Below the pieces are notes generated by a model. It had not been told where the DNA came from and made no database searches. It worked only from the letters and a program-made list of their open reading frames with translations. DNA of 64,000 nt from a virus (Duplodnaviria > Heunggongvirae > Uroviricota > Caudoviricetes): IMG/VR virus record IMGVR_UViG_3300022660_000042; one strand, written 5' to 3'. The first letter of the stretch is position 1, and each line of letters begins with the position of its first letter. Of this stretch, positions 16,104 to 42,754 are shown piece by piece. Made by a program: the position numbers and the translations under genes.

Positions 16104-16286
16104 CTATTCTGTGAACCGATATATTATCGCAACCAGTAGAACATTCAGTAAATAGAATTTAAAGAATATTCCTAGGATTGTACGACAACATAAGTCTTTG
16201 CTTGTGGTTCCTATTGAAGATATGACTAAAAAGAAACATTCCAATAGGAACAACGCCGTTCCATATTCAAATATAGTTAAAATCAT
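16104..16286 (-). CDS. small hydrophobic protein
   Basis: 60-aa ORF with two hydrophobic stretches, filling the gap between the kinase and ligase genes. Confidence 0.3.
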   Translation of the reverse strand: MILTIFEYGTALFLLECFFLVISSIGTTSKDLCCRTILGIFFKFYLLNVLLVAIIYRFTE

Positions 16287-17551: not shown

Positions 17552-17738
17552 ACTTATGAGTCTTATCGAGTTCTACCGTTTCAATAGTACATCCAGCTTC
17601 ATACTTTTCACGAATGAAACTTTCAAGTTCTCCGCGAACTTCAGTTTCCGTTTCGCCATAACGCTTAAAAACAAGCGGTCCTGGAATACCTTCAATTAAA
17701 ACCAAGCACTTATAACGTTGTTTCATTATTTTTCCCAC
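17463..17738 (-). CDS. hypothetical acidic protein
   Basis: 91-aa ORF whose 3' end overlaps the annotated 5' end of the RNA ligase ORF. Confidence 0.4.
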   Translation of the reverse strand: MGKIMKQRYKCLVLIEGIPGPLVFKRYGETETEVRGELESFIREKYEAGCTIETVELDKTHKYEPKKKVEKKNDDLAEEPTPETAEQAQTP

Positions 17739-18391
17739 ATGGCATCGGTTTTGACCAGTTCATCAATGCTTACTGGACGATACCATGCTTCCCAGCTAAC
17801 ATTGTTTTCGACCATTTTGCCGTTATGGTTATCGACAACGCTAGTCTTGTTGAATTCATGCGTATGACCATGAACGAGATAGTCAATAGGCTTACCTTCC
17901 GCAAGATACTGGTTCAATGCGGTCGGGTCACCAGTTGTACCGTCATGTTCATTAATCGTTTCATCATAATTATAATGCTGCAACAGATAGTTCTTACCAT
18001 TATACGTAAGGTAAATGTTATCCTTTACCATAGTAATGTTCGGAAACATAGTTTCCTTGACCGGATAGAGCTTCTTGAACAGAGCATAGTCATGATTACC
18101 ACGAATCATATACATGTGCTTGAAATTCAACTTGTTCGTGTAATAATCGCCAAACACTTCAAGCAACTTGCTACCGGGAGTACCGAGAGTAAAATCACCG
18201 AGGAAAATGACAATATCATTCGGAGAAACAACAGAATTCCATTGCTTCACAATATCTTCATTCATTTCCTCGACGGTTACGTACTTTCGTGTACGGTCAA
18301 AATGATCCTCGTAACTCGTGCAGAGTTTACGATGATTAACGTGCAAGTCACTGACAATAAAAATCTTTTCGTTGTGTAATTCTAGTTCCAT
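17726..18391 (-). CDS. calcineurin-like metallophosphoesterase
   Basis: Motifs SDLHV (DxH), GDF, GNHD and GHTH in canonical order. Start moved to ATG at 18391 (MELELHNEK), 6 nt downstream of a TATATT -10. Confidence 0.75.
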   Translation of the reverse strand: MELELHNEKIFIVSDLHVNHRKLCTSYEDHFDRTRKYVTVEEMNEDIVKQWNSVVSPNDIVIFLGDFTLGTPGSKLLEVFGDYYTNKLNFKHMYMIRGNHDYALFKKLYPVKETMFPNITMVKDNIYLTYNGKNYLLQHYNYDETINEHDGTTGDPTALNQYLAEGKPIDYLVHGHTHEFNKTSVVDNHNGKMVENNVSWEAWYRPVSIDELVKTDAMWEK

Positions 18392-18397
18392 AATGCA

Positions 18398-18432
18398 AAT
18401 ATAATAAAAATAAGGCATTTTGTAAATGCCTT
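18398..18432 (-). promoter_or_regulatory. promoter (TTTACA-17-TATATT) with -35 inside a terminator-like hairpin
   Basis: Plus-strand AATATA at 18398..18403; hairpin AAGGCATTttgtAAATGCCTT at 18412..18432 contains the -35 (plus-strand TGTAAA). Confidence 0.5.
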
Positions 18433-18600
18433 ATTTTTTGTCACCAGATTTTGGAAACCGGTAACAGAGCAATACTAATAAAATTGTTTCAAGAATTACA
18501 TAGATTATCGAAAACTGAAGCTGTAACAATGAACAGAAAATGAACATTGTAAAGAACACTGATAAAAACGTGTTAATAATGAATAATAACAGTTTTTCCA

Positions 18601-19940: not shown

Positions 19941-20333
19941 TTATCTCCTAATATTTCCACAAGATGTATGAGCGTCACCCATAATATCGCCCTTGACTGT
20001 AATGTTTCCTGCATGGGTTTCAACATCACCTGAAACATCACCACCAATTTCGATATTACCTGCTGCACTTTCAACATTACCCATGACGTCGCCAGAAACT
20101 GTAATGTTGTTTCCCTTACATACCTTATCTACGTCACCATAGACCGTAATGTTAATAACTTTATCTTTTACAGTAAAAGACTGATTACCAACAATAACAG
20201 TTTCACCCGAAATCTTAACAGAATCTGCGCAAATAGGTTCTTCAACCTTTTTACCGTTAATTTCAATACTATCTGTGAGGCATAAACCTTTGAGAATATC
20301 TTCAGCCATAGTTTTCCTTATGTTTTTATACAA
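19941..20333 (-). CDS. bactofilin-like protein (beta-helical repeat)
   Basis: Repeated VxGxVxGNIxxGGDVSGDVETHAGNITVKGDIMGD pattern typical of the bactofilin (DUF583) domain. Confidence 0.55.
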   Translation of the reverse strand: MYKNIRKTMAEDILKGLCLTDSIEINGKKVEEPICADSVKISGETVIVGNQSFTVKDKVINITVYGDVDKVCKGNNITVSGDVMGNVESAAGNIEIGGDVSGDVETHAGNITVKGDIMGDAHTSCGNIRR

Positions 20334-20365
20334 TATAGCAAAATTAAAGGGCTTTGTAAGCCCTT
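20332..20365 (-). promoter_or_regulatory. promoter/-10 (TATATT) plus hairpin AAGGGCTTtgtAAGCCCTT
   Basis: Plus-strand AATATA at 20332..20337 and hairpin at 20347..20365, between two minus-strand genes. Confidence 0.45.
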
Positions 20366-21988: not shown

Positions 21989-22017
21989 TAATATAGTAAA
22001 AATATTCATATTTGTCA
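21989..22017 (-). promoter_or_regulatory. sigma70-type promoter TTGACA-17-TATATT
   Basis: Plus-strand AATATA at 21989..21994, TGTCAA at 22012..22017, exact 17-nt spacer; followed upstream by hairpin AGGCTGACttgcGTTAACCT at 22030..22051. Confidence 0.6.
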
Positions 22018-22082
22018 ACCTAAAAAATAAAAGGCTGACTTGCGTTAACCTTTTACCCTCACACATCCAATATTCTTTTTTC

Positions 22083-24102: not shown

Positions 24103-24131
24103 AATATAGTAAATTGTTTGTGTTTTGTAAA
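24103..24131 (-). promoter_or_regulatory. sigma70-type promoter TTTACA-17-TATATT for the 22083..24011 gene
   Basis: Plus-strand AATATA at 24103..24108 and TGTAAA at 24126..24131, 17-nt spacer. Confidence 0.55.
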
Positions 24132-24139: not shown

Positions 24140-24307
24140 TTAAAGGTTTTTTAATGCTTTTTTCCAAGCCTTTACTTTCTTCTTGGATTCTTTGCTCAGT
24201 TTTAATCCGAAAATATCCATTAGTGCATTGGCAGTATCAACACCTGCCAAACGACTTTCGAGTTCTTTCTTCTTTAACGAATTTTCCGTTTCCAATGAAC
24301 TTCCCAT
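24140..24307 (-). CDS. small basic hypothetical protein (55 aa, possibly leaderless)
   Basis: ATG at 24307 lies 8 nt downstream of the -10 of the promoter at 24316..24344. The track ORF start at 24325 would sit inside the promoter. Confidence 0.35.
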   Translation of the reverse strand: MGSSLETENSLKKKELESRLAGVDTANALMDIFGLKLSKESKKKVKAWKKALKNL

Positions 24308-24315
24308 ACATGTAT

Positions 24316-24344
24316 AATATAGCAAGTGTATTTTATTTTGTAAA
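24316..24344 (-). promoter_or_regulatory. sigma70-type promoter TTTACA-17-TATATT
   Basis: Plus-strand AATATA at 24316..24321 and TGTAAA at 24339..24344, 17-nt spacer. Confidence 0.55.
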
Positions 24345-24356
24345 CCCCTAAATATA

Positions 24357-24388
24357 AAAAAGTAGAGCCGGTTGACTCTACTTTTAAA
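24357..24388. terminator. rho-independent terminator hairpin
   Basis: AAAAGTAGAG-ccggttga-CTCTACTTTT inverted repeat with flanking A- and T-runs, downstream of the patatin gene. Confidence 0.65.
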
Positions 24389-24402
24389 TTAAAACCCGAA
24401 TA

Positions 24403-25272
24403 TTATCGATTTTTTACAAAATCTAAAATATCCTTTTTAACTGATTCGTAGTAGTCATCCCAGATTTTCATAACTAAATTAATAGTTTTATCTGATACAT
24501 CATCCATTTTTATCTTTTTTGTATAATTCGGAGATGCATTGAAAACATACTTATCGCCGAGAATGGCTTGTGCTTCATAAATTGGTGATTTTGAACTTCT
24601 TGCTACCCAATCTCCAATCATATATTCTGCCCATCCTAACAATGTTTTATTTCCATGTTCTGTATTTGGTGTATTCATTCCAGTATTAAAATTTAAAAGT
24701 TTAAGATTTCGATTGCCTTGTTTAAATTGACCAGCAATAACTATATCGGCAGGGTTATTTGCCCAACAGCCACCGTCCATATAAGAGTTTCCATCTTTTT
24801 CTATAACATCAAAATATGTAGGTGCTGCTGTTGATGTAAGTACAGCAAATGCCTTTGTTGTATCTTTATCACCTAAATCCCACACTTTTTCTACAGAAGC
24901 ACCATTCATAAATGTTGTTGTAATATAGATAGGTTTTTTCCAATCACTAACTTTACCTTTAAGTTTTTCTTCTAAAATTTTTTTAAGATTTGTATTATCA
25001 TATGTTGGACACGTTGGTTTAAGTCGTTTATACCAGGAATTTTTTGTAAAAATTTTCTTTAAATTATCTTGGTATAATTTAAATATATCATGTGCACTCA
25101 TACCTTCATTCATACATGCAGCAACTATTGAACCCGTAGAAGTACCAGTATATGCTGATACATAATCACCTAATTTTTTACCTAGATCTTGTTCCAATCT
25201 GCACATAAATGCTAAAGGTCCCATAGCCAAGGCTCCACCACCTTCAATACTTAAACACAATTGTTTGCCCAT
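24403..25272 (-). CDS. patatin-like phospholipase
   Basis: Oxyanion-hole GGGALAMG (GGGxxG) near the N-terminus and nucleophile elbow GTSTGS (GxSxG); DGG near the end of the domain. Confidence 0.8.
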   Translation of the reverse strand: MGKQLCLSIEGGGALAMGPLAFMCRLEQDLGKKLGDYVSAYTGTSTGSIVAACMNEGMSAHDIFKLYQDNLKKIFTKNSWYKRLKPTCPTYDNTNLKKILEEKLKGKVSDWKKPIYITTTFMNGASVEKVWDLGDKDTTKAFAVLTSTAAPTYFDVIEKDGNSYMDGGCWANNPADIVIAGQFKQGNRNLKLLNFNTGMNTPNTEHGNKTLLGWAEYMIGDWVARSSKSPIYEAQAILGDKYVFNASPNYTKKIKMDDVSDKTINLVMKIWDDYYESVKKDILDFVKNR

Positions 25273-25303
25273 AAAATTCTCCTAATATAATTTTATATTA
25301 TAT

Positions 25304-25822
25304 TTATATAATTATATTATTCCGAATTTTTTCTATAAGTATATCCAACTCTTTTCTTTTTAAAATAATAACATTATTTTTTATCATGCATTCTTGTTTT
25401 TCCAGTTGTAATTCTTTTGTAAATGGATTTATTAATTGATTATTATCATTAAAGAAAAAATCTCCTTTAACTTCATAAAATTTACCATTTATAATAAAAT
25501 CTGGCTTATATTTATGTTCTTGTTCTTCTTTAATATAAGTAAACGTAATTTTTGGATGATATTCAAACACATTCTTACTGGACTGTAATGCTTCATATAA
25601 TTCATATTCCCAGTGAGAATCGAAATATATATCATTATAATAAAAACCATATACTGTATGTGATTGTGTATTTGGATTTTGACCGGGATTTTTATAACCA
25701 GTTTTTTCATAATATGTTTGCTGACATTTAGCAAATGATTCAGGATTCGACCAATTATGGTAATACCCTGTTTTTCTAAAATATTCTTCAGAACGTTGTT
25801 TTAAATGTTCTGGATTTTTCAT
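25304..25822 (-). CDS. repeat-containing protein (tandem ~23-aa YFxKTGYYHNWSNPES repeats); same frame as upstream ORF across a single TAA
   Basis: Repeats continue upstream of the annotated ATG through 25823..25927 with no stop until the TAA at 25930..25928. Confidence 0.5.
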   Translation of the reverse strand: MKNPEHLKQRSEEYFRKTGYYHNWSNPESFAKCQQTYYEKTGYKNPGQNPNTQSHTVYGFYYNDIYFDSHWEYELYEALQSSKNVFEYHPKITFTYIKEEQEHKYKPDFIINGKFYEVKGDFFFNDNNQLINPFTKELQLEKQECMIKNNVIILKRKELDILIEKIRNNIII

Positions 25823-25927
25823 ATTATGAGTATAACCAGTTTCTTTAAAATATGTATCTATACATTTTTGTCGTGAATCTGGATTAGACCAATTATGATA
25901 ATATCCGGTTCTTTGAAAATATGTATT

Positions 25928-26260
25928 TTATGTTCGAAGCCTAACATCTTGTTTCCATTCATCAGTATGAGAATGCCATGTTTCTGATGCAGATAATTTT
26001 GCTTCTTCACTTTGTCTTGCACACAATGTACAACAATAACGTCTATAACCGTATGTAAAATTTATAAATTTTGTTTCTTTACCACAATTTTTACAAATAT
26101 TTTCATCAGGTTCTTTTAAATATTTATCATAATATTCACGAGAATGTATATTGTGCTTAACTAATAAATGTGTAGAAATTCCCAATGATTTTATTTGTTT
26201 ATGACAGAATTTACATTCTATTATATCATGTCTTACTATATTAAATTTACTTATACTCAT
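25928..26260 (-). CDS. zinc-ribbon protein
   Basis: Two CxxC pairs (CKFCHK...CKNCGK) plus CCTLCARQ; 110 aa. Confidence 0.5.
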   Translation of the reverse strand: MSISKFNIVRHDIIECKFCHKQIKSLGISTHLLVKHNIHSREYYDKYLKEPDENICKNCGKETKFINFTYGYRRYCCTLCARQSEEAKLSASETWHSHTDEWKQDVRLRT

Positions 26261-26403
26261 TAAAAAACTCCTACCTAATTCTTGCCCAATTAGATAGGAG
26301 ATAATACGATAACGTATTTTTCAAATTTTTCTACTATTAAAAGGGCAAGTTTTAATAATACTTATATAGTATTTATAATATTTGCCCGTTTTATTTTGTA
26401 ATA

Positions 26404-27330: not shown

Positions 27331-28484
27331 TAGAACACATATCCTTCACGAGATTTACCGGTTGTAACATTACGCAAGATAGTCGGAATAATTTCACCAG
27401 CCTTCGTAATAATAACTTCATGACCGATTTCGATGCCCATATATTCAAGCATGTCAATATTGCACATATTTGCACGCTGAACTGTAGTTCCGCAAAGTTC
27501 AACAGGTTCAACTACTGCAACCGGAGTCAAATTGCCATTCTTGATAGACCATTCAATGTTAATGAGCTTGGTCTGAGCAAGAGAATACTTCGGCTTGAGT
27601 GCAATCGAGAATTCCGGCAAATAATTGGTTTCAAGATCTTCATAATCAATCAAAGACGTCTTCCAAACAAGACCGTCAATCTGATAATCACGTTCTTCAT
27701 GCCAAATCTGGTCCATAAGAGCGACAGCCTTTTCACCGTTCATGGTTTTAAGGTCGTAAATCTTGTAGTCAACAACATCAAAACCCTGGTTTTTCATCCA
27801 ATCAAGCATATCAGACTGAAGTCGGAAATGACGCTTGGTGTTAGAGGCATAGCGAGCTTCATAAACCTTGATATTAAGCTTTTCACAATCTGCACCGTCG
27901 AGATGCTTCATAATACCAGAAGCAGCATTTCGGCAGTTCTTATACTTCGGGAAATACTTTTCCTTAACGGACTTGTAAAGCAAAATTTCGCCGCGAATAG
28001 TTCCTGTAAAATCCTTATCGACTTTCTTGACGAGACCATTCATCTTAAGAATATTATTGGTAATGTCGTCACCGTATGTACCATCACCACGGGTAGTACC
28101 CTGAACGAACTTTCCATCGACGTATTTAAGCGCAATAGAGCAGCCATCGAGCTTCAAAGGAGCAACGACATATTCATGACCATTCATACGGCACTTATTG
28201 AACCAGACATCCATTTCTGGAGCCGTATTGGCCTTATTCTGAGAACCCATGATAATATCATGCTTGACTTTTTCAAAACCTTCAGTATGGTCCTTACCAA
28301 CTTCCTTCAAAACATCAGAATCAGGATATTTAGTCTTCAGTTCATCCCAGAGTGCATCAAATTCAATGTCGCTCATGATAGGAGAATCGGAATTATAATA
28401 GGCATCTTGTGCCTGACGGATTTTTGCTTCAAGTTCGTTCTTATTCATGTGATACAATATAGTAAAAAATATAGGCTTTGTCAA
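27330..28484 (-). CDS. ligA: NAD-dependent DNA ligase (LigA-type adenylation domain, compact phage form)
   Basis: N-terminal LigA-like opener AQDAYYNSDSPIMSDIEFDALWDEL; adenylation lysine motif KLDGCSIALKYVDGKFVQGTTRGDG (compare LigA [25 protein letters not shown]). Confidence 0.85.
   Translation of the reverse strand: MTKPIFFTILYHMNKNELEAKIRQAQDAYYNSDSPIMSDIEFDALWDELKTKYPDSDVLKEVGKDHTEGFEKVKHDIIMGSQNKANTAPEMDVWFNKCRMNGHEYVVAPLKLDGCSIALKYVDGKFVQGTTRGDGTYGDDITNNILKMNGLVKKVDKDFTGTIRGEILLYKSVKEKYFPKYKNCRNAASGIMKHLDGADCEKLNIKVYEARYASNTKRHFRLQSDMLDWMKNQGFDVVDYKIYDLKTMNGEKAVALMDQIWHEERDYQIDGLVWKTSLIDYEDLETNYLPEFSIALKPKYSLAQTKLINIEWSIKNGNLTPVAVVEPVELCGTTVQRANMCNIDMLEYMGIEIGHEVIITKAGEIIPTILRNVTTGKSREGYVF
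28456..28484 (-). promoter_or_regulatory. sigma70-type promoter TTGACA-17-TATATT embedded in hairpin
   Basis: Plus-strand AATATA at 28456..28461, TGTCAA at 28479..28484, and hairpin TATAGGctttgtcaaCCTATA at 28470..28490. Confidence 0.55.
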
Positions 28485-28485
28485 C

Positions 28486-28752
28486 CTATATTTTAGTTAA
28501 AGAGTTAAGTATTATAAAATCATTCACAAATTGCATATTCTGAAATTTGTCATCGAGGTCATACTTTTTTCCATCCATTTCGACGATTATATCATGTATA
28601 CCCATTAAATGTGAACTTACGTTATCTTTAACAACTATACCGCCAGCTCTATCATGATGAAGTGTCATACGAATAATTTTTTCAATATGACATTCAATAT
28701 CTTCTTCATGTAGGCTTTTATATTTGAGTATTACCGGAATCATATTTATCAT
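28486..28752 (-). CDS. hypothetical protein
   Basis: 88-aa ORF. Confidence 0.4.
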   Translation of the reverse strand: MINMIPVILKYKSLHEEDIECHIEKIIRMTLHHDRAGGIVVKDNVSSHLMGIHDIIVEMDGKKYDLDDKFQNMQFVNDFIILNSLTKI

Positions 28753-29129: not shown

Positions 29130-29486
29130 TTATAAATTGTCCAAAGAATTTAATGTGTTAAAATACTCGATAAAAGCTCTTCGTTGGTCATCATCACGTA
29201 ATTTAAATTTTTGAGTACCAATATAGACAGTTTTTGATATATCAATATTCTTTACATCAATTTGAGACTTAGACTTTCGGCATTCACCCCAAATTTTATC
29301 ACATTTACGTTTTGACGGTGGAGCCGGAGTAAAATAAAATCGACTTTTGAAATGAATTTCTAAAGACTTAGGTGAACCTGAACCAGCTAACTTTTCTCGC
29401 CATCGTCTAAATACATCATTCCAATCATATTCCCAGCTAATATCGGAAACCTTATAAATATGTCCATCTATTTTCAGCTCTACCAT
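29130..29486 (-). CDS. hypothetical protein
   Basis: 118-aa ORF. Confidence 0.45.
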   Translation of the reverse strand: MVELKIDGHIYKVSDISWEYDWNDVFRRWREKLAGSGSPKSLEIHFKSRFYFTPAPPSKRKCDKIWGECRKSKSQIDVKNIDISKTVYIGTQKFKLRDDDQRRAFIEYFNTLNSLDNL

Positions 29487-29487
29487 A

Positions 29488-30387
29488 TTAAAGTCCGGTT
29501 TGTCTTCCAGAGAAATTAACAGAACCTCTACCTTCTACTGTAAGGTAATCATCATAACTGCGCCATTCGTTTTCCTTTCCTGCATGACGAACGAAAGAAA
29601 TATCACCAGTAAAATCCTTAATTACTGTAGCACACCAGTCTTTCTTCTTAAATTCTTCAACGGCATTCTTATCAAGCAACGGTTCATCAAGCGGATAAAC
29701 ACATACCATACCCGCATCTGCACAGAACTGTCCAATTTCTTCCTTTGTATCTAAATCGAATACAGTACAAGACCAATCGCCATAAAGCGTATCAGTGCAC
29801 ATTCCAGACTTGATAGATTCAGCCTTGGAAACCCAATCATGGTCATCATTTACGATATAGCAAGGATCCGTGATAATAATATCCTTATGCTCGAAATGCA
29901 TTGTTCTCGGATGTTTAATTTGATATTCTCGACGAAGAATAAATGCAATCAAATTCCAATAATCATGAGCAAATCCAAGTAATCGTTTCTTTCGCCATGT
30001 TTCAGCGGTATAATTTTTAGCTTTTTCTTTTGTACCGTCTGCACGGGTAATAAACATGTCATCATATTCCATATCATATGCAATATTCCAGTCAAGCTTT
30101 TGACACAGATTAGCCCTACGCTGGCATTCTTCATAACCGAGCTTATAGTGATATTTCTTGATATGTAATTTCTTAAATTCAGAGCATTTAATTTTACGAA
30201 GTTCGTCATTTCGGTTAACCCAATAACGCATATTTTCTACTTCGCGCTTAGCTTTAAGAACCTCTTCAAGTTCTGCGCCTTTAAGCAAGCCCTTATCTGC
30301 CATACAGAACTTACACATAAAATTCTTAACATCCTTAACGCCTTTGGCACAATATTCGCCACCACATACAATACACTTTGCTGTCAT
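29488..30387 (-). CDS. Cys-rich hypothetical protein (N-terminal zinc-binding-like CxxC...C...CxxC)
   Basis: MTAKCIVCGGEYCAKG...CKFC; 299 aa. RBS AAGGAG 8 nt upstream of the ATG. Confidence 0.5.
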   Translation of the reverse strand: MTAKCIVCGGEYCAKGVKDVKNFMCKFCMADKGLLKGAELEEVLKAKREVENMRYWVNRNDELRKIKCSEFKKLHIKKYHYKLGYEECQRRANLCQKLDWNIAYDMEYDDMFITRADGTKEKAKNYTAETWRKKRLLGFAHDYWNLIAFILRREYQIKHPRTMHFEHKDIIITDPCYIVNDDHDWVSKAESIKSGMCTDTLYGDWSCTVFDLDTKEEIGQFCADAGMVCVYPLDEPLLDKNAVEEFKKKDWCATVIKDFTGDISFVRHAGKENEWRSYDDYLTVEGRGSVNFSGRQTGL

Positions 30388-30411: not shown

Positions 30412-30444
30412 AATATAGAAAAAGGGGAGACTTTCGTCAACCCC
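30412..30444 (-). promoter_or_regulatory. sigma70-type promoter TTGACG-17-TATATT with -35 and spacer inside a GAAA-tetraloop hairpin followed by T5
   Basis: Minus strand reads GGGGTTGACGAAAGTCTCCCCTTTTTCTATATT. Plus coordinates: AATATA 30412..30417, CGTCAA 30435..30440, hairpin 30424..30444. Confidence 0.65.
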
Positions 30445-30649
30445 TATAATTCGGGTACATTCTGCAAGTGTCCCAAATATTTGCCTGTTCTTCATCTGAC
30501 AAATAAATTGTCTGGTCTTCCGGAACTGACTTTCCTTCCAATCGATTCATAAATGAATTACGCATTTTTAAAATAGCATCTTGTCGTTCATCAATGCCAT
30601 TGATACACATGTCGAATTTTTCAGCTAACTGTTGTGCTTTGGATTTCAT
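30437..30649 (-). CDS. hypothetical protein
   Basis: 70-aa ORF. Confidence 0.4.
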   Translation of the reverse strand: MKSKAQQLAEKFDMCINGIDERQDAILKMRNSFMNRLEGKSVPEDQTIYLSDEEQANIWDTCRMYPNYRG

Positions 30650-31116: not shown

Positions 31117-31148
31117 AATATAGAAAAAGGGCCGACTTTCGTCAACCC
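31117..31148 (-). promoter_or_regulatory. sigma70-type promoter TTGACG-17-TATATT inside GAAA-tetraloop hairpin plus T-run
   Basis: Minus strand reads GGGTTGACGAAAGTCGGCCCTTTTTCTATATT. Plus coordinates: AATATA 31117..31122, CGTCAA 31140..31145, hairpin 31129..31148. Confidence 0.65.
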
Positions 31149-31178
31149 TTTATTATTATAGGAGAAAATATATACTTA

Positions 31179-32819
31179 TTAGCGACGACGGCGACGAGAA
31201 AGTTCAGCAATAACTGTCGGATCGTTCATCATGTCCGAAAGGCTACGTCCAATAGAAGTATTAGCTTCAGCCGGTTCCTTAGTCTTGTCAACATTCGGAG
31301 TTTCCGGACGAGCTTCAGCCTTAGGTTCATTTACGACTTCTGCTTCGGTCTTTTCAACCTTTGGAGCACCGGAAACACCAGCGAGTCGGGCACCGAACAT
31401 AGAACCGAGAACAGTCTTGAGGTCCATACCGAGAGAATCGGTCAAACCGCTAGAAATCTGAGTAAGCGTCTTGGTAATATCGCCGGTGAGCTTTGCAGTA
31501 CCGCTTTCACCGTACATATTGATGTTACCAATCTTTTCCATCGGCTTAGCAACTGCACCAGCGATAGCCGGGAGCTGTTCGAAATACTTTTCAATAGTCT
31601 TGAGCTGCATTTCCTGACGAGCTGCATCACCATACTTCTTCATGGCTTCAGCCTTCTGGTCAAGAGCTGCTGCTTCTGCAAGACCCTTAGCCTTTACAGC
31701 ATCAGCTTCAGCTTCACCCTTAGCCTTAGTAGCTGCAGCTTCAGCGAAAGCCTTTTCCTTATCAGCTTCAGCCTTGGCGATAATTGCCTTAGCTTGCTGC
31801 TGCTGGGTAAAGAGTGCTGCTTCAGCTTCCTTCTGCTGCTTATAAAGTTCAGCATCAGAACGCTGCATCTGAGCCTGCTTATCGGCTTCAGCCTTCTTCT
31901 GAATTTCAGCTTCGAGTTCCTTCTGACGGACAGCTACCATGCGTTCACGAATTTCAATCTGCTTTTCCTGCTTTGCAACTTCTGCAGCTGCTGCAGTAAT
32001 ATTGATGGTCTTCTGCTGTTCCTGCTTCTGAATTTCATAAGCGGCATCAGCTTCGGCCTTCTTAGTATCAGAAATTCGCTTAAGGTCAGCCTTCTTAACT
32101 TCGAGGTCGTTCTGCTTCTGAGCGATTTCAAGGTTTGCTGCAACCTGAGCATCGTTTGCTGTCTTCGCTGCTTCAGCCTGAGCAATCTTCACGTCACGTT
32201 CTGCATTTGCTCGAGAAATTGATGCAGCCTTCTGAATTGCTACAGCCTTATCAACACCGAGGTTTTCAATTACCTTACCGTCGTCCGAGAAGTTCTGAAT
32301 ATTGAAGGTCTTAACGATAATACCGAGCTTTTCAAGATCTGGAATAGCATTTTCAAGAACCTTCTCAGAAACCTGCTTTCGGTCCGTAACCATGTCGACA
32401 AGATTCATCTGGCCGACAATCTCACGCATATTACCCTCAAGCACGTCAACAATCATCGCCTTAATCTGTTCAATCGGCTTATTGAGGAAGTTCTGGGCAG
32501 CTTTCTTAATTGCTTCAGGTTCATCAGAAATCTTTGCATTAACAACAGCGTCAACTGTTACATTAATGTAGTCCTTGGTCGGAACTGCCTGCTTAGTCTT
32601 GACGTCAATCGGAATCAACTTCAAGCTAAGAACGTCAGCACGTTCAAGGAACGGGATCTTGAAACCGGCATGCCCGATAATTGTTCGAAGCTGTCGGAAA
32701 CCCGAAATAATAATTACTTCATCCGGCGCCGCCTTAATATAAGACGTAATGAAGAGGATAACGAGGAAAAGTACGAGCAGGCCGATACCCGCACCGATGA
32801 GGATATTTGAACTAAGCAT
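31179..32819 (-). CDS. flotillin-like SPFH/band-7 domain protein with long Ala/Glu/Lys-rich coiled coil
   Basis: N-terminal TM helix, then an SPFH-like region (APDEVIIISGFRQLRTIIGHAGFKIPFLERADVLSLKLIPIDV...), then a ~200-aa AEA/AKA-repeat coiled coil typical of flotillin/YqiK. Confidence 0.75.
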   Translation of the reverse strand: MLSSNILIGAGIGLLVLFLVILFITSYIKAAPDEVIIISGFRQLRTIIGHAGFKIPFLERADVLSLKLIPIDVKTKQAVPTKDYINVTVDAVVNAKISDEPEAIKKAAQNFLNKPIEQIKAMIVDVLEGNMREIVGQMNLVDMVTDRKQVSEKVLENAIPDLEKLGIIVKTFNIQNFSDDGKVIENLGVDKAVAIQKAASISRANAERDVKIAQAEAAKTANDAQVAANLEIAQKQNDLEVKKADLKRISDTKKAEADAAYEIQKQEQQKTINITAAAAEVAKQEKQIEIRERMVAVRQKELEAEIQKKAEADKQAQMQRSDAELYKQQKEAEAALFTQQQQAKAIIAKAEADKEKAFAEAAATKAKGEAEADAVKAKGLAEAAALDQKAEAMKKYGDAARQEMQLKTIEKYFEQLPAIAGAVAKPMEKIGNINMYGESGTAKLTGDITKTLTQISSGLTDSLGMDLKTVLGSMFGARLAGVSGAPKVEKTEAEVVNEPKAEARPETPNVDKTKEPAEANTSIGRSLSDMMNDPTVIAELSRRRRR

Positions 32820-32858
32820 TTATGTTCCTTTTGTTATGTGTTTTTGTTTAGTTAAAAT

Positions 32859-33599
32859 CTAATCGTTCAGCCATGAGTTTTCCATTGCAATAAAGATACA
32901 ACATATTACAATAATAACTATCGAGAAAATTATCCAGAAATACAATACTGTATGTTTCCAGCTAAAATCCTCTACTGCTTGATCGATTTTTACATTGTCA
33001 CGATATTCTGCATCATTCATTCGATGATTATCGATATTTGCATATACCGTTCCAGTAAAACTTAATGGGCGACAATAATAAACATATCGTTTATTATGTG
33101 CGAAATTGATTGTCTTTACATAATGACCGCTTGGCAATTCCGGAAACTGACCGTAGTAAAAGTCTTTCTTAATAAAATTAACTTTATCTACATTCCAGTC
33201 TTTTGCTCCATGATAGTCCCATGTCCAATAGACCTTAGTATGACAGCTACGTGTCTTTCCAGAACCAGTACAAACAAGCTTCGTATGCATCGTATAGACC
33301 TCGAGCACTCGATGGACTGACATATACTTACCTGGCAAACCGTCGTCTGTAACACTGCCTATCGCGGAAACAGTTCCGTATGCCAAAGTATGCCCAGCAT
33401 TAGTATTGAATGCATATTGAAACTGTGTAGAATCGTTATCGATTTTCACAGCCTGATTGTACTTCGCATTATGGTCATCTTGCCAAAGATCCATCCTATT
33501 ACCTACGTAGAAACCTACTGCTAGGGAAATAAGAGCGAATACAAGCGCTACAATAACTTCACGCTGAGTTACTTCAATATTGGTATCACCAATATACAT
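32859..33599 (-). CDS. membrane protein (TM helices at both ends) cotranscribed with LemA
   Basis: Start overlaps the LemA stop by 1 nt. Hydrophobic helices near the N- and C-termini. Confidence 0.5.
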   Translation of the reverse strand: MYIGDTNIEVTQREVIVALVFALISLAVGFYVGNRMDLWQDDHNAKYNQAVKIDNDSTQFQYAFNTNAGHTLAYGTVSAIGSVTDDGLPGKYMSVHRVLEVYTMHTKLVCTGSGKTRSCHTKVYWTWDYHGAKDWNVDKVNFIKKDFYYGQFPELPSGHYVKTINFAHNKRYVYYCRPLSFTGTVYANIDNHRMNDAEYRDNVKIDQAVEDFSWKHTVLYFWIIFSIVIIVICCIFIAMENSWLND

Positions 33600-34156
33600 T
33601 AATTCTTTTCCTTAAGAAGTCCTGTGGGTGCGTCTACTGGCGCATTTGCAAATTCAAGAACCTTATAGTCCTTTTCCTGATAACCTAGAATACTCAAACA
33701 GATGTTTGACGGGAACATACGAACATGCTGATGATATTCGGTTACATTTTTATTATAATACTTACGATGCGACGCAATTCGATTTTCAGTCATGGATAAT
33801 TCATTCATGTACTGCTTATAATTTTCTATTGAACGCAATTCTGGATAACGTTCTACAACACCACGGATATATGCAGAAGCATTAACATTTCCGTTGCCTT
33901 CTGCTGGTGTACGAGCCTGTGATAGCTGTACCAAAACTTCGGCTTCATGCTTGTTATACGACATTACTGCTTCTGCCAAGTTAACAAGCAAGCCTGCACG
34001 TCGATTATATTCGGTGTTCAAATCGCTCAAAGAACTTTCAATGAGCAATTCCTTTGCGATTGCCTTATTTTGTGAGCTTTGTACGCCAAACACTGTGGCG
34101 ATAATCAATGCTACAATAATAGCAAGACTTGAAATTAAGACTGTTACGGGTTTCAT
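33599..34156 (-). CDS. lemA: LemA-family protein
   Basis: N-terminal TM plus conserved LemA-like core (...YNRRAGLLVNLAEAV...VERYPELRSIENYKQYMNELSMTENRIASHRKYYNKNVTEYHQHVRMFPSNI...). Confidence 0.7.
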   Translation of the reverse strand: MKPVTVLISSLAIIVALIIATVFGVQSSQNKAIAKELLIESSLSDLNTEYNRRAGLLVNLAEAVMSYNKHEAEVLVQLSQARTPAEGNGNVNASAYIRGVVERYPELRSIENYKQYMNELSMTENRIASHRKYYNKNVTEYHQHVRMFPSNICLSILGYQEKDYKVLEFANAPVDAPTGLLKEKN

Positions 34157-34706: not shown

Positions 34707-34739
34707 AATATAAAAAAAGAGGTGACTTTCGTCAACCCC
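34707..34739 (-). promoter_or_regulatory. sigma70-type promoter TTGACG-17-TATATT inside GAAA-tetraloop hairpin plus T-run
   Basis: Plus-strand AATATA at 34707..34712, CGTCAA at 34730..34735, hairpin GAGGTGACtttcGTCAACCCC at 34719..34739. Confidence 0.6.
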
Positions 34740-34761
34740 TTTTTAATAATTATTTACAGGC

Positions 34762-36072: not shown

Positions 36073-36099
36073 AATAACCTCTATAACTATTTATAAAAG

Positions 36100-40273: not shown

Positions 40274-41128
40274 TTACTTTATATTTTTTATTATATTGGT
40301 ATATTCAATTAAATTGACCATTAAGAGCGAAATACCAGAATTCATAGCGAATTCATTAAACTTCTTTGCTCTCGGTTCAGGAACATATTCAAAAGAATTA
40401 ACTACTCGTTTAATTGCTTCAGTATATTCCGTTGGTATATTTTCAAATGAAATAAGCTTAGAATTCAACATGAACTTTTCAGTAAGTTGATTTTCTTCAA
40501 GCCATTTATCGAGCTCGCCAGAATTAACAATCTTTTCAGCAGTCTTAATTCCAACGCCTTTTTTAATTCCCGGAATATCATCGGATTTATCGCCTGTAAT
40601 AATCTTGACAAGCAAATCTGTTTCCGGATTCAATGTACTTAAATACTGTTTTTTTATCCCGTCGTACTGGTGATAATTTGCGCAAACAAAAAGTTGCATA
40701 AAGTCTCTGTCAGAAGAAACATTATAGCATTCCCATTCAGGATGGGATTTGACAATAACCGAAATCTGGTCATCAGCTTCGGTCTTGGGTACATCTACGA
40801 AATAAATATTCGTACCTTCAAATGCAACCTTCAAGCGTTCGAGCAAATCACTCCATACTGCAAAAAATGCGTCGAAATTAACGATTGACGCAGAACGCTT
40901 TGCGGCACGACTGGCTTTATAACCTTCAAAAATATCTTTACGCCAGCTACTTCCATCAATACAACAAAAAACCCTATTAGGATTAATTTCACTAATAGCC
41001 TTAAAGAATGATGAAAAGAATGTCGCCTTAAATAACATGAACTCCTTTTCTTCTGGTCCAGGAGTTTGCGCAAATAAGCAGCGCATAATCATGTTTGAAA
41101 TATCGAGGGTCAATATCTTGTTGTTCAT
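40274..41128 (-). CDS. rnh: RNase H / flap endonuclease (5'-3' exonuclease, T4 rnh-like)
   Basis: ILTLDISNMIMR N-terminal motif, TEADDQISVIV, SSDRDFMQL, GDKSDDIPG; collinear with T4 RNase H (EADDHIAVLV, SSDGDFTQL, GDKKDNV, from memory). Confidence 0.8.
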   Translation of the reverse strand: MNNKILTLDISNMIMRCLFAQTPGPEEKEFMLFKATFFSSFFKAISEINPNRVFCCIDGSSWRKDIFEGYKASRAAKRSASIVNFDAFFAVWSDLLERLKVAFEGTNIYFVDVPKTEADDQISVIVKSHPEWECYNVSSDRDFMQLFVCANYHQYDGIKKQYLSTLNPETDLLVKIITGDKSDDIPGIKKGVGIKTAEKIVNSGELDKWLEENQLTEKFMLNSKLISFENIPTEYTEAIKRVVNSFEYVPEPRAKKFNEFAMNSGISLLMVNLIEYTNIIKNIK

Positions 41129-41169
41129 GTCCTCAAATATAGGTAAAAATAATTTTTTAGTTTTATGCT

Positions 41170-41661
41170 TTATGGCATTTTATCTGACTTTTTAACATGG
41201 CTCATTATGCAACGGCCAATAAAGCCTTCAATATCGCTGACATCGGTATCAATATAATAATATTCCTTTTTCAGCTCTTCAATACTTCCATAAAAATACT
41301 TCTTAATATAGCATTGAGTATTTACATCAACCATGGAATATCCAGAATTGTTGACAAAAGTATAATAATTGAGCATTTCATTTCCGTTATAGTATTCGCG
41401 GACTTTGAATGCCTGACTTATAACACCTTCCGTATTTACCTTATTATACGTATTGGTATCGATTACATATTCATAAAGGTTTTGCTTCATGTCGATAACC
41501 GTTACCTTAGTTTTTGTAGCGGAAATCTTAGATTCAGTAGGCATTACTGCACAATACCGAATATCATCGACCGCAGTGCATATTGCATAGGTATTGAATG
41601 TCTTAGCCTGTGCGAAAATACAAACTACAGAAAAAAGAATAGGTAATACGAACTTAATCAT
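41170..41661 (-). CDS. secreted/periplasmic hypothetical protein (signal peptide)
   Basis: MIKFVLPILFSVVCIFAQA signal-peptide-like N-terminus. ATG lies 7 nt downstream of the promoter -10. Confidence 0.45.
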   Translation of the reverse strand: MIKFVLPILFSVVCIFAQAKTFNTYAICTAVDDIRYCAVMPTESKISATKTKVTVIDMKQNLYEYVIDTNTYNKVNTEGVISQAFKVREYYNGNEMLNYYTFVNNSGYSMVDVNTQCYIKKYFYGSIEELKKEYYYIDTDVSDIEGFIGRCIMSHVKKSDKMP

Positions 41662-41668
41662 ATTACCT

Positions 41669-41697
41669 AATATAGAAAAATATCGTAATTTTGTAAA
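41669..41697 (-). promoter_or_regulatory. sigma70-type promoter TTTACA-17-TATATT
   Basis: Plus-strand AATATA at 41669..41674 and TGTAAA at 41692..41697. Confidence 0.55.
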
Positions 41698-42247: not shown

Positions 42248-42754
42248 AACTTATCCTTAACAATTAAATATAGCAAAACTGTAACAAATAGTTTACAACC
42301 TATATATAAAAGTTCTATGATTTTTAAAACGACAGAATATTTTATTTTTAGTTAAAAAAATTTTTACAAAAACTTTCTATTATTGTTTTCACATATTCAA
42401 GTCTGATTCCTCGGAACGAAAACCAATCCAATGGAATTATCGGTAGAGGGTCAGCCATTGAAAACTTCAGATACGGGTTTTCCAGAAATGAGCTGGAATA
42501 TCGTTTTGAAATATACTCGGTAACAGCTAGTGAAAGTATCAGCGAAGTACAGATTAGCAATCTGCACGTTTAGCCGCCATGGTTTTAACGGATGTAGCCG
42601 AAGTACAGGATGACCGCCTCGTAAGCCGTTATGTAAATCCCTAAAGATTGACGATGAAGCTTTATACCAAAAGTGGAATAGTCATAGTCTGGAAGTTCCT
42701 TCTAGGCTTATGATCTCTGAATCGCATTACCCAAAAGATAGAACAGATAAAAAT

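What the first reader, a model, noticed from the sequence alone, without database searches (positions are those of the whole stretch)
30412..30444. Recurrent compact terminator-promoter module: sigma70-type promoter (TTGAC[A/G]-17-TATATT) whose -35 and spacer are embedded in a GNRA-tetraloop hairpin followed by a T-run
On the coding (minus) strand at least six intergenic regions read stem-TTGAC-GAAA-GTC-stem-TTTTT(C)-TATATT (for example GGGGTTGACGAAAGTCTCCCCTTTTTCTATATT). The hairpin loop is a GAAA or GCAA tetraloop closed by GAC/GTC. The hairpin's 5' arm supplies a consensus -35 (TTGACG), its 3' arm plus the T-run supplies the exactly 17-nt spacer, and TATATT is the -10. So one element can terminate upstream transcription and initiate downstream transcription. 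Copies are at plus-strand 2011..2028, 22030..22051, 30424..30444, 31129..31148, 34719..34739 and 52433..52452. Hairpin variants sit at 13512..13533, 18412..18432, 20347..20365 and 28470..28490. Plain TT(G/T)ACA-17-TATATT promoters occur at 21989..22017, 24103..24131, 24316..24344, 41669..41697 and on the plus strand at 14145..14173. The sigma70-like consensus plus AAGGAG-type Shine-Dalgarno sequences suggest a non-Bacteroidota host.
Basis: seen in the sequence. Interest (0 to 1): 0.65.

Follow-up and report, generated by a model that had tools for sequence, protein, structure and literature searches.

The report
Fused terminator-promoter cassettes in rumen phage
A large uncultured phage packs a transcription stop signal and a strong host-type start signal into one ~35-base intergenic element reused between many genes; the design is real and elegant but matches the "PeSL" cassettes already described in T4-like phages.

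Summary
TTGACR-N17-TATATT occurs 7 times, all on the gene strand, against 0.04 expected. TTKAC-N18-TATATT occurs 13 times against 0.19, always intergenic and co-oriented with the next gene. The window holds about 25 such TATATT promoters. In 11 of them an RNA hairpin (dG -10 to -17 kcal/mol) covers the -35/spacer region and its T-run ends 0-4 nt before the -10.

In 486 kb of related phage DNA, 67 of 127 unique promoters carry a hairpin of at least 8 bp there, against 9 in shuffles. The stems are unrelated in sequence and tolerate G-U only on the sense strand, which points to an RNA terminator.

Hairpin-less promoters keep the same conserved bases (GGG-TTKACAAA...TTTnC-TATATT). The terminator is therefore built from promoter bases plus the free spacer.

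The genome is a jumbo phage of at least 225 kb, probably from rumen. It has T4-type polymerase, UvsX and RNA ligase genes and T4-late-like TATAAATA promoters.

The closest known system is the PeSL (promoter-early stem-loop) of T4-like phages, which includes a described subclass with the stem-loop over the -35. I file this as a new member of a known kind; function is inferred, not measured.

Side finding: many of these promoters sit 6-7 nt from the ATG, implying leaderless mRNAs.

The parts
30412..30445 (-). Focal module. Hairpin 30423..30445 (GGGG-TT-GAC GAAA GTC-T-CCCC), -35 TTGACG 30435..30440, T-run 30418..30422, -10 TATATT 30412..30417. The stop codon of upstream ORF 30437..30649 is the TGA inside the -35. 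The downstream gene starts at 30387 behind AAAGGAG.
   Evidence: (dG -11.9, z -2.95)
31117..31151 (-). Module. Hairpin 31126..31151 (AAAGGGTTGAC GAAA GTCGGCCCTTT, two G-U pairs), -35 31140..31145, -10 31117..31122. Next gene starts at 31090 with an SD.
   Evidence: (dG -16.2, z -4.9; antisense only -9.9)
34707..34744 (-). Module. Hairpin 34714..34744, -35 34730..34735, -10 34707..34712. Next gene starts at 34681 with an SD.
   Evidence: (dG -14.1, z -5.1)
52422..52457 (-). Module. Hairpin 52430..52457, -35 52445..52450, -10 52422..52427. The ATG of gene 51822..52415 lies 6 nt after the -10, a leaderless layout.
   Evidence: (dG -16.0, z -7.9)
28456..28494 (-). Variant module. Hairpin 28466..28494 around TTGACA (5-nt loop), -10 28456..28461. 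The ATG of the NAD-dependent DNA ligase at 28448 lies 7 nt after the -10. The 5' arm overlaps the end of the upstream ORF.
   Evidence: (dG -11.4, z -5.8)
13499..13535 (-). Variant module. Hairpin GGCGGGTTT ACAA AAGCCCGTC with -35 TTTACA (13522..13527) at the apex. -10 at 13499..13504.
   Evidence: (dG -15.2, z -5.1)
18398..18438 (-). Variant module. Hairpin AAGGCATTT ACA AAATGCCTT with -35 TTTACA, -10 18398..18403, ATG at 18391 (6 nt, leaderless layout, phosphoesterase gene).
   Evidence: (dG -12.6)
20332..20365 (-). Variant module. Hairpin AAGGGCTT ACA AAGCCCTT with a CTTACA -35-like hexamer. -10 at 20332..20337.
   Evidence: (dG -10.1, z -2.5)
1997..2033 (-). Hairpin (TGGTAAAC GAAA GTTTACCA) + T-run + TATATT with no -35 match. 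The TATATT overlaps a TATAAATA at 1990..1997. Lies upstream of the UvsX-like gene.
   Evidence: (dG -13.4, z -5.9)
629..669 (-). Hairpin (GGGTCC AATC GGGCCC) + T-run + TATATT, no -35 match.
   Evidence: (dG -16.6, z -5.3)
6410..6452 (-). Hairpin + T6 + CTATATT, no -35 match. The ATG of DNA polymerase part A (6401) lies 8 nt after the -10.
   Evidence: (dG -11.7, z -4.9)
21990..22051 (-). Unfused arrangement. Stand-alone terminator hairpin 22030..22051 (GGTTAAC GCAA GTCAGCC + T-run), followed by plain promoter TTGACA-17-TATATT at 21990..22018.
24316..24385 (-). Terminator hairpin 24358..24385, followed by plain promoter GGGGTTTACA-17-TATATT at 24316..24344.
24103..24131 (-). Plain promoter GGGTTTACA-17-TATATT, no hairpin.
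41669..41697 (-). Plain promoter TTTACA-17-TATATT with the ATG 7 nt after the -10.
148..176 (-).
14145..14173 (+). The only plus-strand copy. TTTACA-17-TATATT lies 7 nt before the ATG (14181) of the only plus-strand gene (tRNA nucleotidyltransferase-like).

Best explanation
These are composite regulatory cassettes of a large virulent phage. Each packs a strong sigma70-family early-type promoter and an intrinsic, Rho-independent terminator into one 35-45-nt intergenic element.

On the DNA, the host holoenzyme reads an A-rich upstream tract, GGG, the -35 TTGAC(A/G), a 17-nt spacer ending in TTT-n-C, and the -10 TATATT. It starts about 7 nt further on.

On RNA made from upstream, the same bases (A-tract, GGG, TTGAC) pair with a complementary 3' arm written into the otherwise unconstrained spacer. 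This gives an 8-13-bp hairpin followed by the U-run, which releases the polymerase inside the promoter.

Each gene or small gene block is thereby insulated. Upstream transcription is stopped and a fresh transcript is begun, and that transcript does not itself contain the hairpin.

Shown here: the sequence architecture, its statistical excess, its pairing and strand asymmetry, and its conservation in relatives.

A secondary, weaker inference is that the repeated cassettes also serve as recombination points for gene-cassette exchange, as proposed for PeSLs.
For: Excess and position:
- 7 hits against 0.04 expected and 13 against 0.19.
- Every copy is intergenic and co-oriented with the next gene, including the single plus-strand copy before the single plus-strand gene.

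Hairpins:
- 11 window copies fold at -10.1 to -16.6 kcal/mol, z -2.5 to -7.9.
- Across window and relatives, 67/127 unique promoters have a hairpin of at least 8 bp over the -35/spacer, against 9.1 (maximum 20) in shuffles. For at least 10 bp the figures are 53 against 1.3. With spacers swapped between promoters the figure is 26.9, maximum 35.
- The stems are of many unrelated sequences.

RNA level, sense strand:
- The sense fold is more stable than the antisense in 59/67 cases, mean -13.4 against -10.1.
- The four canonical window copies fold at -11.9 to -16.2 on the sense strand against -9.8 to -10.4 antisense.
- In a gapless alignment defined only by the promoter register, 71.7% of cells pair against 30-54% when slid, and 0/500 shuffles reach this. 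Pair 18-37 shows GC 36, GU 15, AU 12, UA 3, CG 1.

Design logic: hairpin-less promoters keep GGG at -38..-36, AAA at -29..-27, TTT at -17..-15 and C at -13.

Genome-wide habit: 11 of 19 perfect-stem terminator-like hairpins on the gene strand are fused to TATATT (8) or TATAAATA (3).

Precedent: PeSLs in phi1/RB49 had promoter and terminator activity in lacZ fusions and include stem-loops overlapping the -35 (PMC2839356; PMC4122927).

Recombination role:
- Homology to a relative 75-88% identical breaks immediately after the -10 of the focal module, with a different gene cassette downstream.
- Another breakpoint ends at the promoter at 24316..24344.
- Two neighbouring modules in the relative are identical to each other (ATAA loop), while both window orthologues have GAAA.
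Against: - There is no transcript-end or reporter data for this phage, and the host is unknown.
- The focal copy is the weakest hairpin: 3 + 5 bp with an internal loop, z -2.95.
- The U-run is only about 5 U. TTT at -17..-15 is conserved in hairpin-less promoters too, so the T-run is not independent evidence for termination.
- In at least two copies the upstream ORF ends inside the 5' arm. A terminating ribosome could interfere with folding.
- About half of the promoters have no hairpin.
- Three hairpin + TATATT elements lack any -35 match. Either they are weak or differently recognised promoters, or the TATATT there is not a promoter.
- The recombination evidence is thin. Other breakpoints (18601-18830, and 51427-51844 against L026) have no module. 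One insertion looks like a homing-endonuclease gene.
- Part of the comparative set was fetched by the motif itself, which forces the GAC/GTC pairs in about 40 copies.
Confidence: 0.75

Rival explanations
1. Promoter only. The inverted repeat does not terminate transcription. It forms a 3'-end or processing hairpin that stabilises upstream mRNA, or it merely shields the promoter from read-through without releasing polymerase.
For: The T-run (TTT at -17..-15) is a promoter-intrinsic feature that is also present without hairpins. Some stems are short or interrupted. Nothing here separates termination from 3'-end protection.
Against: A GC-rich stem followed directly by a run of at least 5 U is the canonical intrinsic-terminator signature. 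The same hairpin + T-run form is fused to a second promoter class, TATAAATA, and also occurs alone. PeSL stem-loops reduced lacZ expression to an extent comparable with the rrnB T1 terminator (PMC2839356).
Confidence: 0.12
2. DNA-level element. The palindrome over the -35 is an operator for a dimeric phage or host regulator, or a cruciform that switches the promoter, for example to shut off early transcription.
For: The palindrome is centred on or next to the -35, a classic operator position. The exact 12-mer TTGACGAAAGTC recurs in 30 viral-contig stretches.
Against: Stems have many unrelated sequences and at least two registers, which does not fit sequence-specific protein binding. G-T wobbles make the sense fold more stable than the antisense in 59/67 cases; a DNA duplex or cruciform should be symmetric. 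Orthologous copies change the loop freely.
Confidence: 0.05
3. Hairpin promoter for a phage-encoded single-subunit RNA polymerase, as in N4 early promoters, rather than a host sigma70 promoter.
For: The genome is at least 225 kb and only 64 kb was inspected, so a phage RNA polymerase cannot be excluded. d(GAAA)-type loops make stable DNA hairpins (general knowledge).
Against: About half of the promoters have identical -35/-10 blocks and no hairpin. Both hexamers and the fixed 17-nt spacing match the sigma70 consensus. No ORF longer than 735 aa and no RNA polymerase hit was found in the window. N4 promoter hairpins have 3-nt loops and conserved stem sequence (general knowledge).
Confidence: 0.03
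4. Selfish repeated palindromic element (REP- or MITE-like) that spread through intergenic regions. The promoter resemblance would be secondary.
For: Fourteen pairs of copies share an identical 33-nt core in unrelated flanks across contigs. There are signs of copy homogenisation within a genome.
Against: Every copy is co-oriented with the downstream gene. Copies are phased to it, with the ATG at 6-7 nt or an SD-led start at 17-30 nt. Hairpins with unrelated stems occupy the same position. Hairpin-less promoters share the conserved blocks.
Confidence: 0.05

Closest known systems
PeSLs (promoter-early stem-loops) of T4-like myoviruses (Arbiol et al. 2010, PMC2839356; Comeau et al. 2014, PMC4122927)
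   Same: Both are intergenic composite cassettes repeated many times per genome. Both combine an AT-rich upstream tract, a near-consensus sigma70 promoter (TTGACA or TTTACW, N17, TATAAT-like) and a stem-loop that acts as terminator or attenuator. G-T pairs in the stems were noted in both. Five stem-loop positions were described for PeSLs, including overlap with the -35 and placement between -35 and -10. Both lie next to ORFans and at indel or replacement boundaries between close relatives. A middle-promoter version (PmSL) exists in nt-1, just as a TATAAATA version exists here.
   Different: - The host phage here is an uncultured jumbo phage of at least 225 kb, only distantly T4-related. Its host is unknown.
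- One geometry dominates here: the -35 in the 5' arm or apex and the T-run as spacer. In phi1 the commonest positions were between the boxes or over the -10.
- The -10 is TATATT with a conserved TTTnC before it.
- A fraction of cassettes end in a leaderless ATG instead of an SD plus start.
- Promoter and terminator activity and mini-circle formation were not tested here.
T4 early promoters ('uber' UP/-35/TGn/-10 promoters; Hinton 2010, PMC2988021)
   Same: Both are strong host-type promoters with extra conserved positions beyond the two hexamers, an A/T-rich upstream region and a TTTAC-type -35 (TTTACW in T4/PST). Both occur in a genome that also uses TATAAATA in front of late-type genes.
   Different: There is no TGn extended -10; TTT-n-C sits there instead. 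GGG lies just upstream of the -35. Timing and the polymerase used are unknown here.
Canonical intrinsic terminators with GNRA tetraloops (general knowledge of bacterial Rho-independent terminators)
   Same: Both have a GC-rich stem of 8-13 bp, a C(GNRA)G-type loop in the TTGACG subclass, and a U-run immediately 3' of the stem.
   Different: The terminator is superimposed on a promoter, so its 5' arm and U-run are fixed by promoter consensus. Loops are not GNRA when the -35 is TTGACA.
Morons of lambdoid phages (promoter-gene-terminator units)
   Same: Both are self-contained expression units with their own promoter and terminator around accessory genes.
   Different: In morons the promoter and terminator are separate and lie at opposite ends of the gene. 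Morons are often in opposite orientation to their neighbours and are not a conserved repeat (discussion in PMC2839356).
N4 virion-RNA-polymerase hairpin promoters
   Same: In both, a hairpin is associated with a phage early promoter.
   Different: In N4 the DNA hairpin is itself the recognition element for a phage polymerase. Here the hairpin is dispensable for the promoter consensus and behaves as a sense-strand RNA structure.

Membership tests
PeSL (promoter-early stem-loop cassette) | Sigma70-like promoter with -35 and -10 boxes about 17 nt apart | tested here: met
   13 TTKAC-N18-TATATT sites against 0.19 expected. Consensus derived from 25 window sites and 127 unique sites.
PeSL (promoter-early stem-loop cassette) | Stable stem-loop within or next to the promoter; five positions are allowed, including overlap with the -35 | tested here: met
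   11 window copies fold at dG -10.1 to -16.6. 67/127 have a hairpin against 9.1 in shuffles.
PeSL (promoter-early stem-loop cassette) | Intergenic position between the upstream stop codon and the downstream SD plus start codon, with an AT-rich tract upstream of the -35 | tested here: met
   All copies are intergenic and co-oriented. There is an A-rich tract at -45..-39. 61/67 led starts have an SD. However, 28/128 have the ATG 6-7 nt after the -10 with no SD, which departs from the PeSL description.
PeSL (promoter-early stem-loop cassette) | Many copies per genome, concentrated in plastic regions rich in small ORFs of unknown function | tested here: inconclusive
   About 25 copies lie in 64 kb, densest at 12-42 kb among auxiliary genes and ORFans and sparse at 43-64 kb, where TATAAATA dominates. 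Most genes of this phage lack annotation anyway, so enrichment cannot be judged.
PeSL (promoter-early stem-loop cassette) | Indel or replacement boundaries between close relatives coincide with the cassettes | tested here: inconclusive
   Of four breakpoints against L032, two abut a TATATT promoter (30411, and 24152-24410). One lies between two TATAAATA repeats (25266-26403). One has no regulatory repeat (18601-18830). A further deletion in L026 (51427-51844) has none.
PeSL (promoter-early stem-loop cassette) | Host phage is a T4-type myovirus | tested here: inconclusive
   For:
- A split family-B polymerase whose best hits are T4-like cyanophages at 32-35% identity.
- A T4_UVSX_C domain and RNA_lig_T4_1.
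- A gp2-like DNA end protector.
- TATAAATA before the tail-tube gene and others.

Missing: no gp55, gp45, gp44, gp46 or gp47 homologue was found in the window with T4 queries, and no capsid or terminase gene was seen. Only 64 of at least 225 kb was inspected.
PeSL (promoter-early stem-loop cassette) | Demonstrated promoter and terminator activity; mini-circle formation between neighbouring copies | not testable with these tools
   This needs reporter fusions, in vitro transcription or inverse PCR, as in PMC2839356.
Intrinsic (Rho-independent) terminator | GC-rich hairpin immediately followed by a U-rich tract on the transcribed strand | tested here: met
   The sense strand is favoured in 59/67 cases.
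Rfam RNA families | Match to a curated covariance model at gathering score | tested here: not met
   The only hit in the window is cow-rumen-2 at 42541..42645. No family matches at any module.
N4-type hairpin promoter | Hairpin indispensable for the promoter, and a phage-encoded virion RNA polymerase present | tested here: not met
   Half of the promoters lack a hairpin but keep the same boxes. No giant ORF or RNA polymerase was found in the window. The rest of the genome was not inspected.

The most novel reading that the evidence does not exclude
The cassette may be a complete, portable plug-and-play expression unit shared by a widespread clade of uncultured (probably rumen) jumbo phages. 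In about 60 nt it would supply a stop for the previous gene, an UP-like A-tract, terminator, promoter and, in about a fifth of copies, a leaderless start codon at +1. Its repeated sequence would drive gene-cassette exchange and copy homogenisation among these phages. On this reading the promoter consensus (GGG...TTT-n-C) has been shaped by the need to double as terminator arms. Systematic leaderless early and late mRNAs would be a new trait for T4-related phages.
Probability: 0.3. Interest if true: 0.55.

Novelty: new member of a known kind. Interest (0 to 1): 0.35.

Why it matters
The finding extends the PeSL concept, so far described only in cultured T4-like phages of enterobacteria and vibrios, to a distant clade of uncultured phages. 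The exact module occurs on viral contigs of up to 424 kb.

It also gives a clear design rule. Every base of the terminator's 5' arm and U-run is already fixed by the promoter, and only the free spacer encodes the complementary arm.

In practice the motif gives a ready-made transcription-unit map for these unannotated genomes. It is also a compact natural insulator part (terminator + promoter, with or without a leaderless start) that could be tested for synthetic biology.

It does not open a new category of biology.

Tried and rejected
- Megablast of 8 kb against INPHARED phages found no match, so no cultured close relative exists.
- Two genome-contig scans, with the 642-aa ORFan and with the ligase, found nothing. 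The host is not identified.
- The first exact-protein look-up failed because of a wrong TTG start. The second succeeded.
- phmmer with T4 gp55, gp45, gp44, gp62, gp46, gp47, RegA and RpbA against all ORFs of the window and loci returned only gp43 (window, L001), gp44 (L016) and a marginal gp55 hit in L015 at E 0.006. A T4-type late sigma is therefore not shown.
- The generic sigma70 consensus scan barely discriminates (97 found against 70 expected). Only the specific TTKAC-17-TATATT form does.
- My first greedy gene model on both strands picked spurious plus-strand ORFs and was replaced.
- The test for copy homogenisation was weak. Orthologous pairs mostly have identical cores, so gene conversion rests on one example in L032.
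- I considered equating the A6-GGG block with the proximal UP subsite consensus (AAAAAARNR at -46..-38, from memory). It is about 2 nt out of register, so I do not claim it.
- A literature search for other overlapping terminator/promoter descriptions in jumbo or rumen phages found nothing relevant.
Full report
**1. The observation**

On the minus strand the focal site reads ...AATTATAGGGGTTGACGAAAGTCTCCCCTTTTTCTATATTACAAAATTATAAAAGGAGTTTTTAATG.

- TTGACR-N17-TATATT occurs 7 times, all on the minus strand, against 0.04 expected.
- The looser TTKAC-N18-TATATT occurs 13 times, against 0.19 expected and a maximum of 3 in 100 dinucleotide shuffles.
- Twelve of those lie on the minus strand, which carries about 105 of the 106 genes. 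The thirteenth lies on the plus strand, 7 nt before the ATG of the only plus-strand gene.
- All 13 are intergenic once the starts of the downstream genes are placed correctly, as public gene calls confirm for 27-47 kb. Three had seemed to fall inside ORFs of my crude model only because that model used the first possible start.

Listing every intergenic TATATT on the gene strand gives about 25 promoter-like sites. Their common consensus is a-rich ... GGG-TT(G/T)AC-aAAa ... TTTT-n-C-TATATT.

- Four copies, not six, read TTGAC-GAAA-GTC...TATATT.
- The copy at 2011 has no -35.
- The copy at 22030 is a stand-alone terminator followed by a separate promoter.
- One interval is off by one base.

**2. 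The hairpins**

Eleven window promoters have a hairpin whose 3' end lies 0-4 nt from the -10. Folded as RNA they give -10.1 to -16.6 kcal/mol, with z-scores from -2.5 to -7.9 against dinucleotide shuffles.

- Eight of the eleven carry a -35 match in the 5' arm or at the apex: TTGAC in five, TTTAC in two, CTTAC in one.
- Three (629..669, 1997..2033, 6410..6452) have a hairpin, T-run and TATATT but no -35.
- Four other promoters have a separate terminator just upstream.
- The rest have no hairpin.

Seen from the terminator side, 11 of 19 perfect-stem terminator-like hairpins on the gene strand are followed within a few bases by TATATT (8) or by TATAAATA (3). Fusing a terminator to the next promoter is therefore a habit of this genome.

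**3. Relatives**

The exact string TTGACGAAAGTC-N11-TATATT occurs in 30 IMG/VR stretches (41 copies with the window), on contigs of up to 424 kb.

In 486 kb of window plus related loci I found 127 unique TTKAC-N18-TATATT promoters:

| Measure | Observed | Control |
|---|---|---|
| Uninterrupted hairpin of at least 8 bp over the -35/spacer | 67 | 9.1 mean, 20 maximum (flank and spacer shuffled) |
| Hairpin of at least 10 bp | 53 | 1.3 |
| At least 8 bp, spacers swapped between promoters | 67 | 26.9 mean, 35 maximum |

The stems are of many unrelated sequences and at least two registers, for example TAGGGTTG/CAACCCTA, ATACCCG/CGGGTAT, AAGGCATTT/AAATGCCTT and GACCGAAACA/TGTTTCGGT. The architecture, not just one repeat, is therefore recurrent.

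The sense RNA is more stable than the antisense in 59 of 67 cases, with means of -13.4 and -10.1 kcal/mol. The cause is that the 3' arm tolerates A/G exchange opposite U. That is the signature of an RNA structure on the transcribed strand, not of a DNA cruciform or a protein operator.

In a gapless alignment of 83 TTGAC promoters defined only by promoter register, the TTGAC-N4-GTC register has 71.7% of cells paired. Slid registers give 30-54%, and 0 of 500 shuffles reach the observed value. The outer pair 18-37 shows GC 36, GU 15, AU 12, UA 3 and CG 1.

One caveat applies. About 40 of these copies were retrieved by the motif, so their inner GAC/GTC pairs are forced. The outer pairs and the by-catch promoters are not.

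Loci fetched by protein similarity, which are unbiased for the motif, show the same thing. L032 has nine such promoters in 22 kb, and six or seven of them are hairpin-type.

**4. The design logic**

Promoters without a hairpin keep these positions:
- GGG at -38..-36 (61-75%)
- AAA at -29..-27
- TTT at -17..-15 (about 90%)
- C at -13 (86%)

The terminator's 5' arm (A-tract, GGG, TTGAC) and its U-run are thus bases that the promoter already fixes. Only the unconstrained part of the spacer (-26..-18) is rewritten to be complementary.

The loop follows from the -35. When the sixth base is G, the loop is GAAA, GGAA, GAGA or GTAA, all of them GNRA. When it is A, giving a perfect TTGACA, the loops are ATAA, AAGC, ATTA and so on.

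**5. What genome this is**

- There is no nucleotide match to cultured phages.
- One window protein (299 aa, 29488..30387) is found identically on contigs of 224,850 bp (ENA) and 411,269 bp (JGI), so this is a jumbo phage.
- An Rfam hit to cow-rumen-2 RNA suggests a rumen origin. This is an inference.
- Genes found include:
  - replication, recombination and repair: a split family-B DNA polymerase whose best hits are T4-like cyanophage gp43 at 32-35% identity, a UvsX-like recombinase with the T4_UVSX_C domain, NAD ligase, an RNase H-like 5'-3' exonuclease and a gp2-like DNA end protector;
  - RNA repair: a T4 RnlA-type RNA ligase with kinase and phosphoesterase neighbours;
  - nucleotide metabolism: dCMP deaminase, dUTPase and DHFR;
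  - others: a ClpP-type protease and a tail tube protein.

- TATAAATA, the T4 late-promoter octamer, occurs 16 times. Fourteen copies are on the gene strand and twelve lie within 10-30 nt upstream of a start codon, including the tail-tube gene. Four have a hairpin and T-run ending 0-8 nt before them.
- I could not find gp55, gp45 or other T4 late-transcription genes in the 64 kb.

'T4-related' is therefore well supported for the replication and recombination genes and suggested for the transcription programme, but it is not proven.

**6. Comparison with what is known**

The closest known system is the PeSL (promoter-early stem-loop) of T4-like phages.
- Arbiol et al. 2010 describe intergenic cassettes made of an AT-rich tract, a near-consensus sigma70 promoter and a stem-loop.
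- They show terminator and promoter activity in lacZ fusions.
- They distinguish five subclasses by stem-loop position: between the boxes, overlapping the -35, overlapping the -10, upstream, or downstream (PMC2839356).
- Comeau et al. 2014 extend this to PST/T4 (TTTACW-N17-TAYWAT) and nt-1/KVP40, and describe a middle-promoter version (PMC4122927).

The present element meets the structural criteria. It also shows hints of the evolutionary ones, in comparison with a relative 75-88% identical (IMG/VR contig 3300037512_001092; loci L001, L036, L032):
- Homology ends immediately after the -10 of the focal module. Two window genes (29130..30387) are replaced there by a different short ORF.
- Another breakpoint ends at the promoter at 24316..24344.
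- A 1.1-kb two-gene insertion is flanked by two TATAAATA copies where the relative has one.
- Two neighbouring modules of the relative are identical to each other, while both window orthologues carry GAAA.

Other indels have no module. The recombination role is therefore suggested, not shown.

**7. Mechanism and rivals**

The best explanation (confidence 0.75) is a fused intrinsic terminator and host-type early promoter that insulates successive transcription units.

Rivals:
- A hairpin that only stabilises 3' ends or shields the promoter (0.12).
- A DNA-level operator or cruciform (0.05). The diversity of stems and the sense/antisense asymmetry argue against it.
- An N4-type hairpin promoter (0.03). 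Hairpin-less promoters with the same boxes argue against it.
- A selfish palindromic repeat (0.05). Strict co-orientation with the next gene and phasing to its start codon argue against it.

None of these can be excluded without transcript mapping.

**8. Side findings**

The distance from the -10 to the first long-ORF ATG is bimodal. There is a sharp peak at 6-7 nt (28 of 128 promoters, with no SD) and a broad peak at 17-30 nt (61 of 67 with an SD).

In the window, 11 of 25 TATATT promoters sit 6-9 nt from the ATG. These include the promoters of DNA polymerase part A, the ligase, the 5'-3' exonuclease and the tRNA nucleotidyltransferase.

TATAAATA shows the same split, with 15 of 98 sites exactly 4 nt from an ATG.

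This implies frequent leaderless mRNAs in both promoter classes. The PeSL papers do not describe this, and to my knowledge it is not reported for T4-like phages.

**9. Verdict**

The element is a new member of a known kind, the PeSL-type composite promoter/terminator, in an uncultured jumbo-phage clade.

Interest is moderate (0.35). It is a clean example with an explicit design rule and an interesting leaderless variant, but not a new category.

Noticed in passing
window 52413..52427, 28446..28461, 18389..18403, 41659..41674, 41126..41141, 49645..49659, 6399..6415, 14168..14183(+); related loci L005-L034: Leaderless layout. The ATG of the downstream gene lies 6-7 nt (up to 9) after the TATATT with no Shine-Dalgarno. 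This holds for 28 of 128 unique promoters overall and 11 of 25 in the window, including the DNA polymerase, NAD ligase, 5'-3' exonuclease and tRNA nucleotidyltransferase genes. The remaining starts lie 17-30 nt away, and 61/67 of them have an SD.
   Followed up: partly
window 63990..63997, 62845..62852, 60952..60959, 58445..58452, 56856..56863, 54558..54565, 54200..54207, 45673..45680, 36088..36095, 26370..26377, 25301..25308, 8204..8211: A second promoter-like class, TATAAATA (the T4 late-promoter octamer). Fourteen of 16 copies are on the gene strand and 12 lie within 10-30 nt upstream of a start codon, for example before the tail-tube gene 60384..60935. Four are fused to a hairpin and T-run. 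Across the loci, 15 of 98 sites are exactly 4 nt from an ATG. No gp55 homologue was found in the window.
   Followed up: partly
window 42541..42645 (+ strand): Full-length match to Rfam RF02947, cow-rumen-2 RNA (102.8 bits; gathering score 66). It lies in a 240-nt intergenic gap, on the strand opposite to all neighbouring genes. This places an orphan metagenomic RNA motif in a jumbo phage genome.
   Followed up: partly
window 3116..4297 and 4194..6401 (- strand): The family-B DNA polymerase is split into two ORFs. The N-terminal part is 735 aa and the C-terminal part about 393 aa, and both hit the same PHROG (262), as in some T4-like phages with split gp43. The junction and overlap at about 4194-4297 were not examined.
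   Followed up: no
window 25266..26403 vs L032 7969..8020: A 1.1-kb two-gene cassette (25304..25822 and 25928..26260) is absent at this position in the relative. In the window it is flanked by TATAAATA on both sides, while the relative has a single TATAAATA. A fragment similar to 26058..26137 sits elsewhere in the relative, at L032 9079..9159.
   Followed up: partly
L032 8876..9862 (relative of window 24152..24410): The relative carries an extra ORF of about 230 aa with its own terminator and a TATAAATA-like promoter. It is inserted just upstream of the promoter orthologous to window 24316..24344. By eye, its C-terminal part looks like a Vsr/DUF559-type endonuclease, so it is probably a homing endonuclease.
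   Followed up: no
window 30437..30440 and 28486..28494: Upstream ORFs run into the module. The stop codon of ORF 30437..30649 is the TGA inside the -35 TTGACG. The last codons of ORF 28486..28752 form the 5' arm of the ligase-promoter hairpin, which leaves only 37 nt between the two genes.
   Followed up: partly
window 15651..18418 and 14181..15368: A cluster of RNA-repair-type genes: a polynucleotide-kinase-like ATPase, a T4 RnlA-type RNA ligase, a metallophosphoesterase and a divergently transcribed tRNA nucleotidyltransferase. No tRNA genes are present in the window. However, tRNA-like 3' ends directly precede modules in relatives L007 and L027.
   Followed up: no
window 31179..34156: Unusual accessory genes sit directly between modules: a Band_7/flotillin-domain protein (546 aa) and a LemA-family protein, with a patatin-like protein at 24403..25272.
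   Followed up: no
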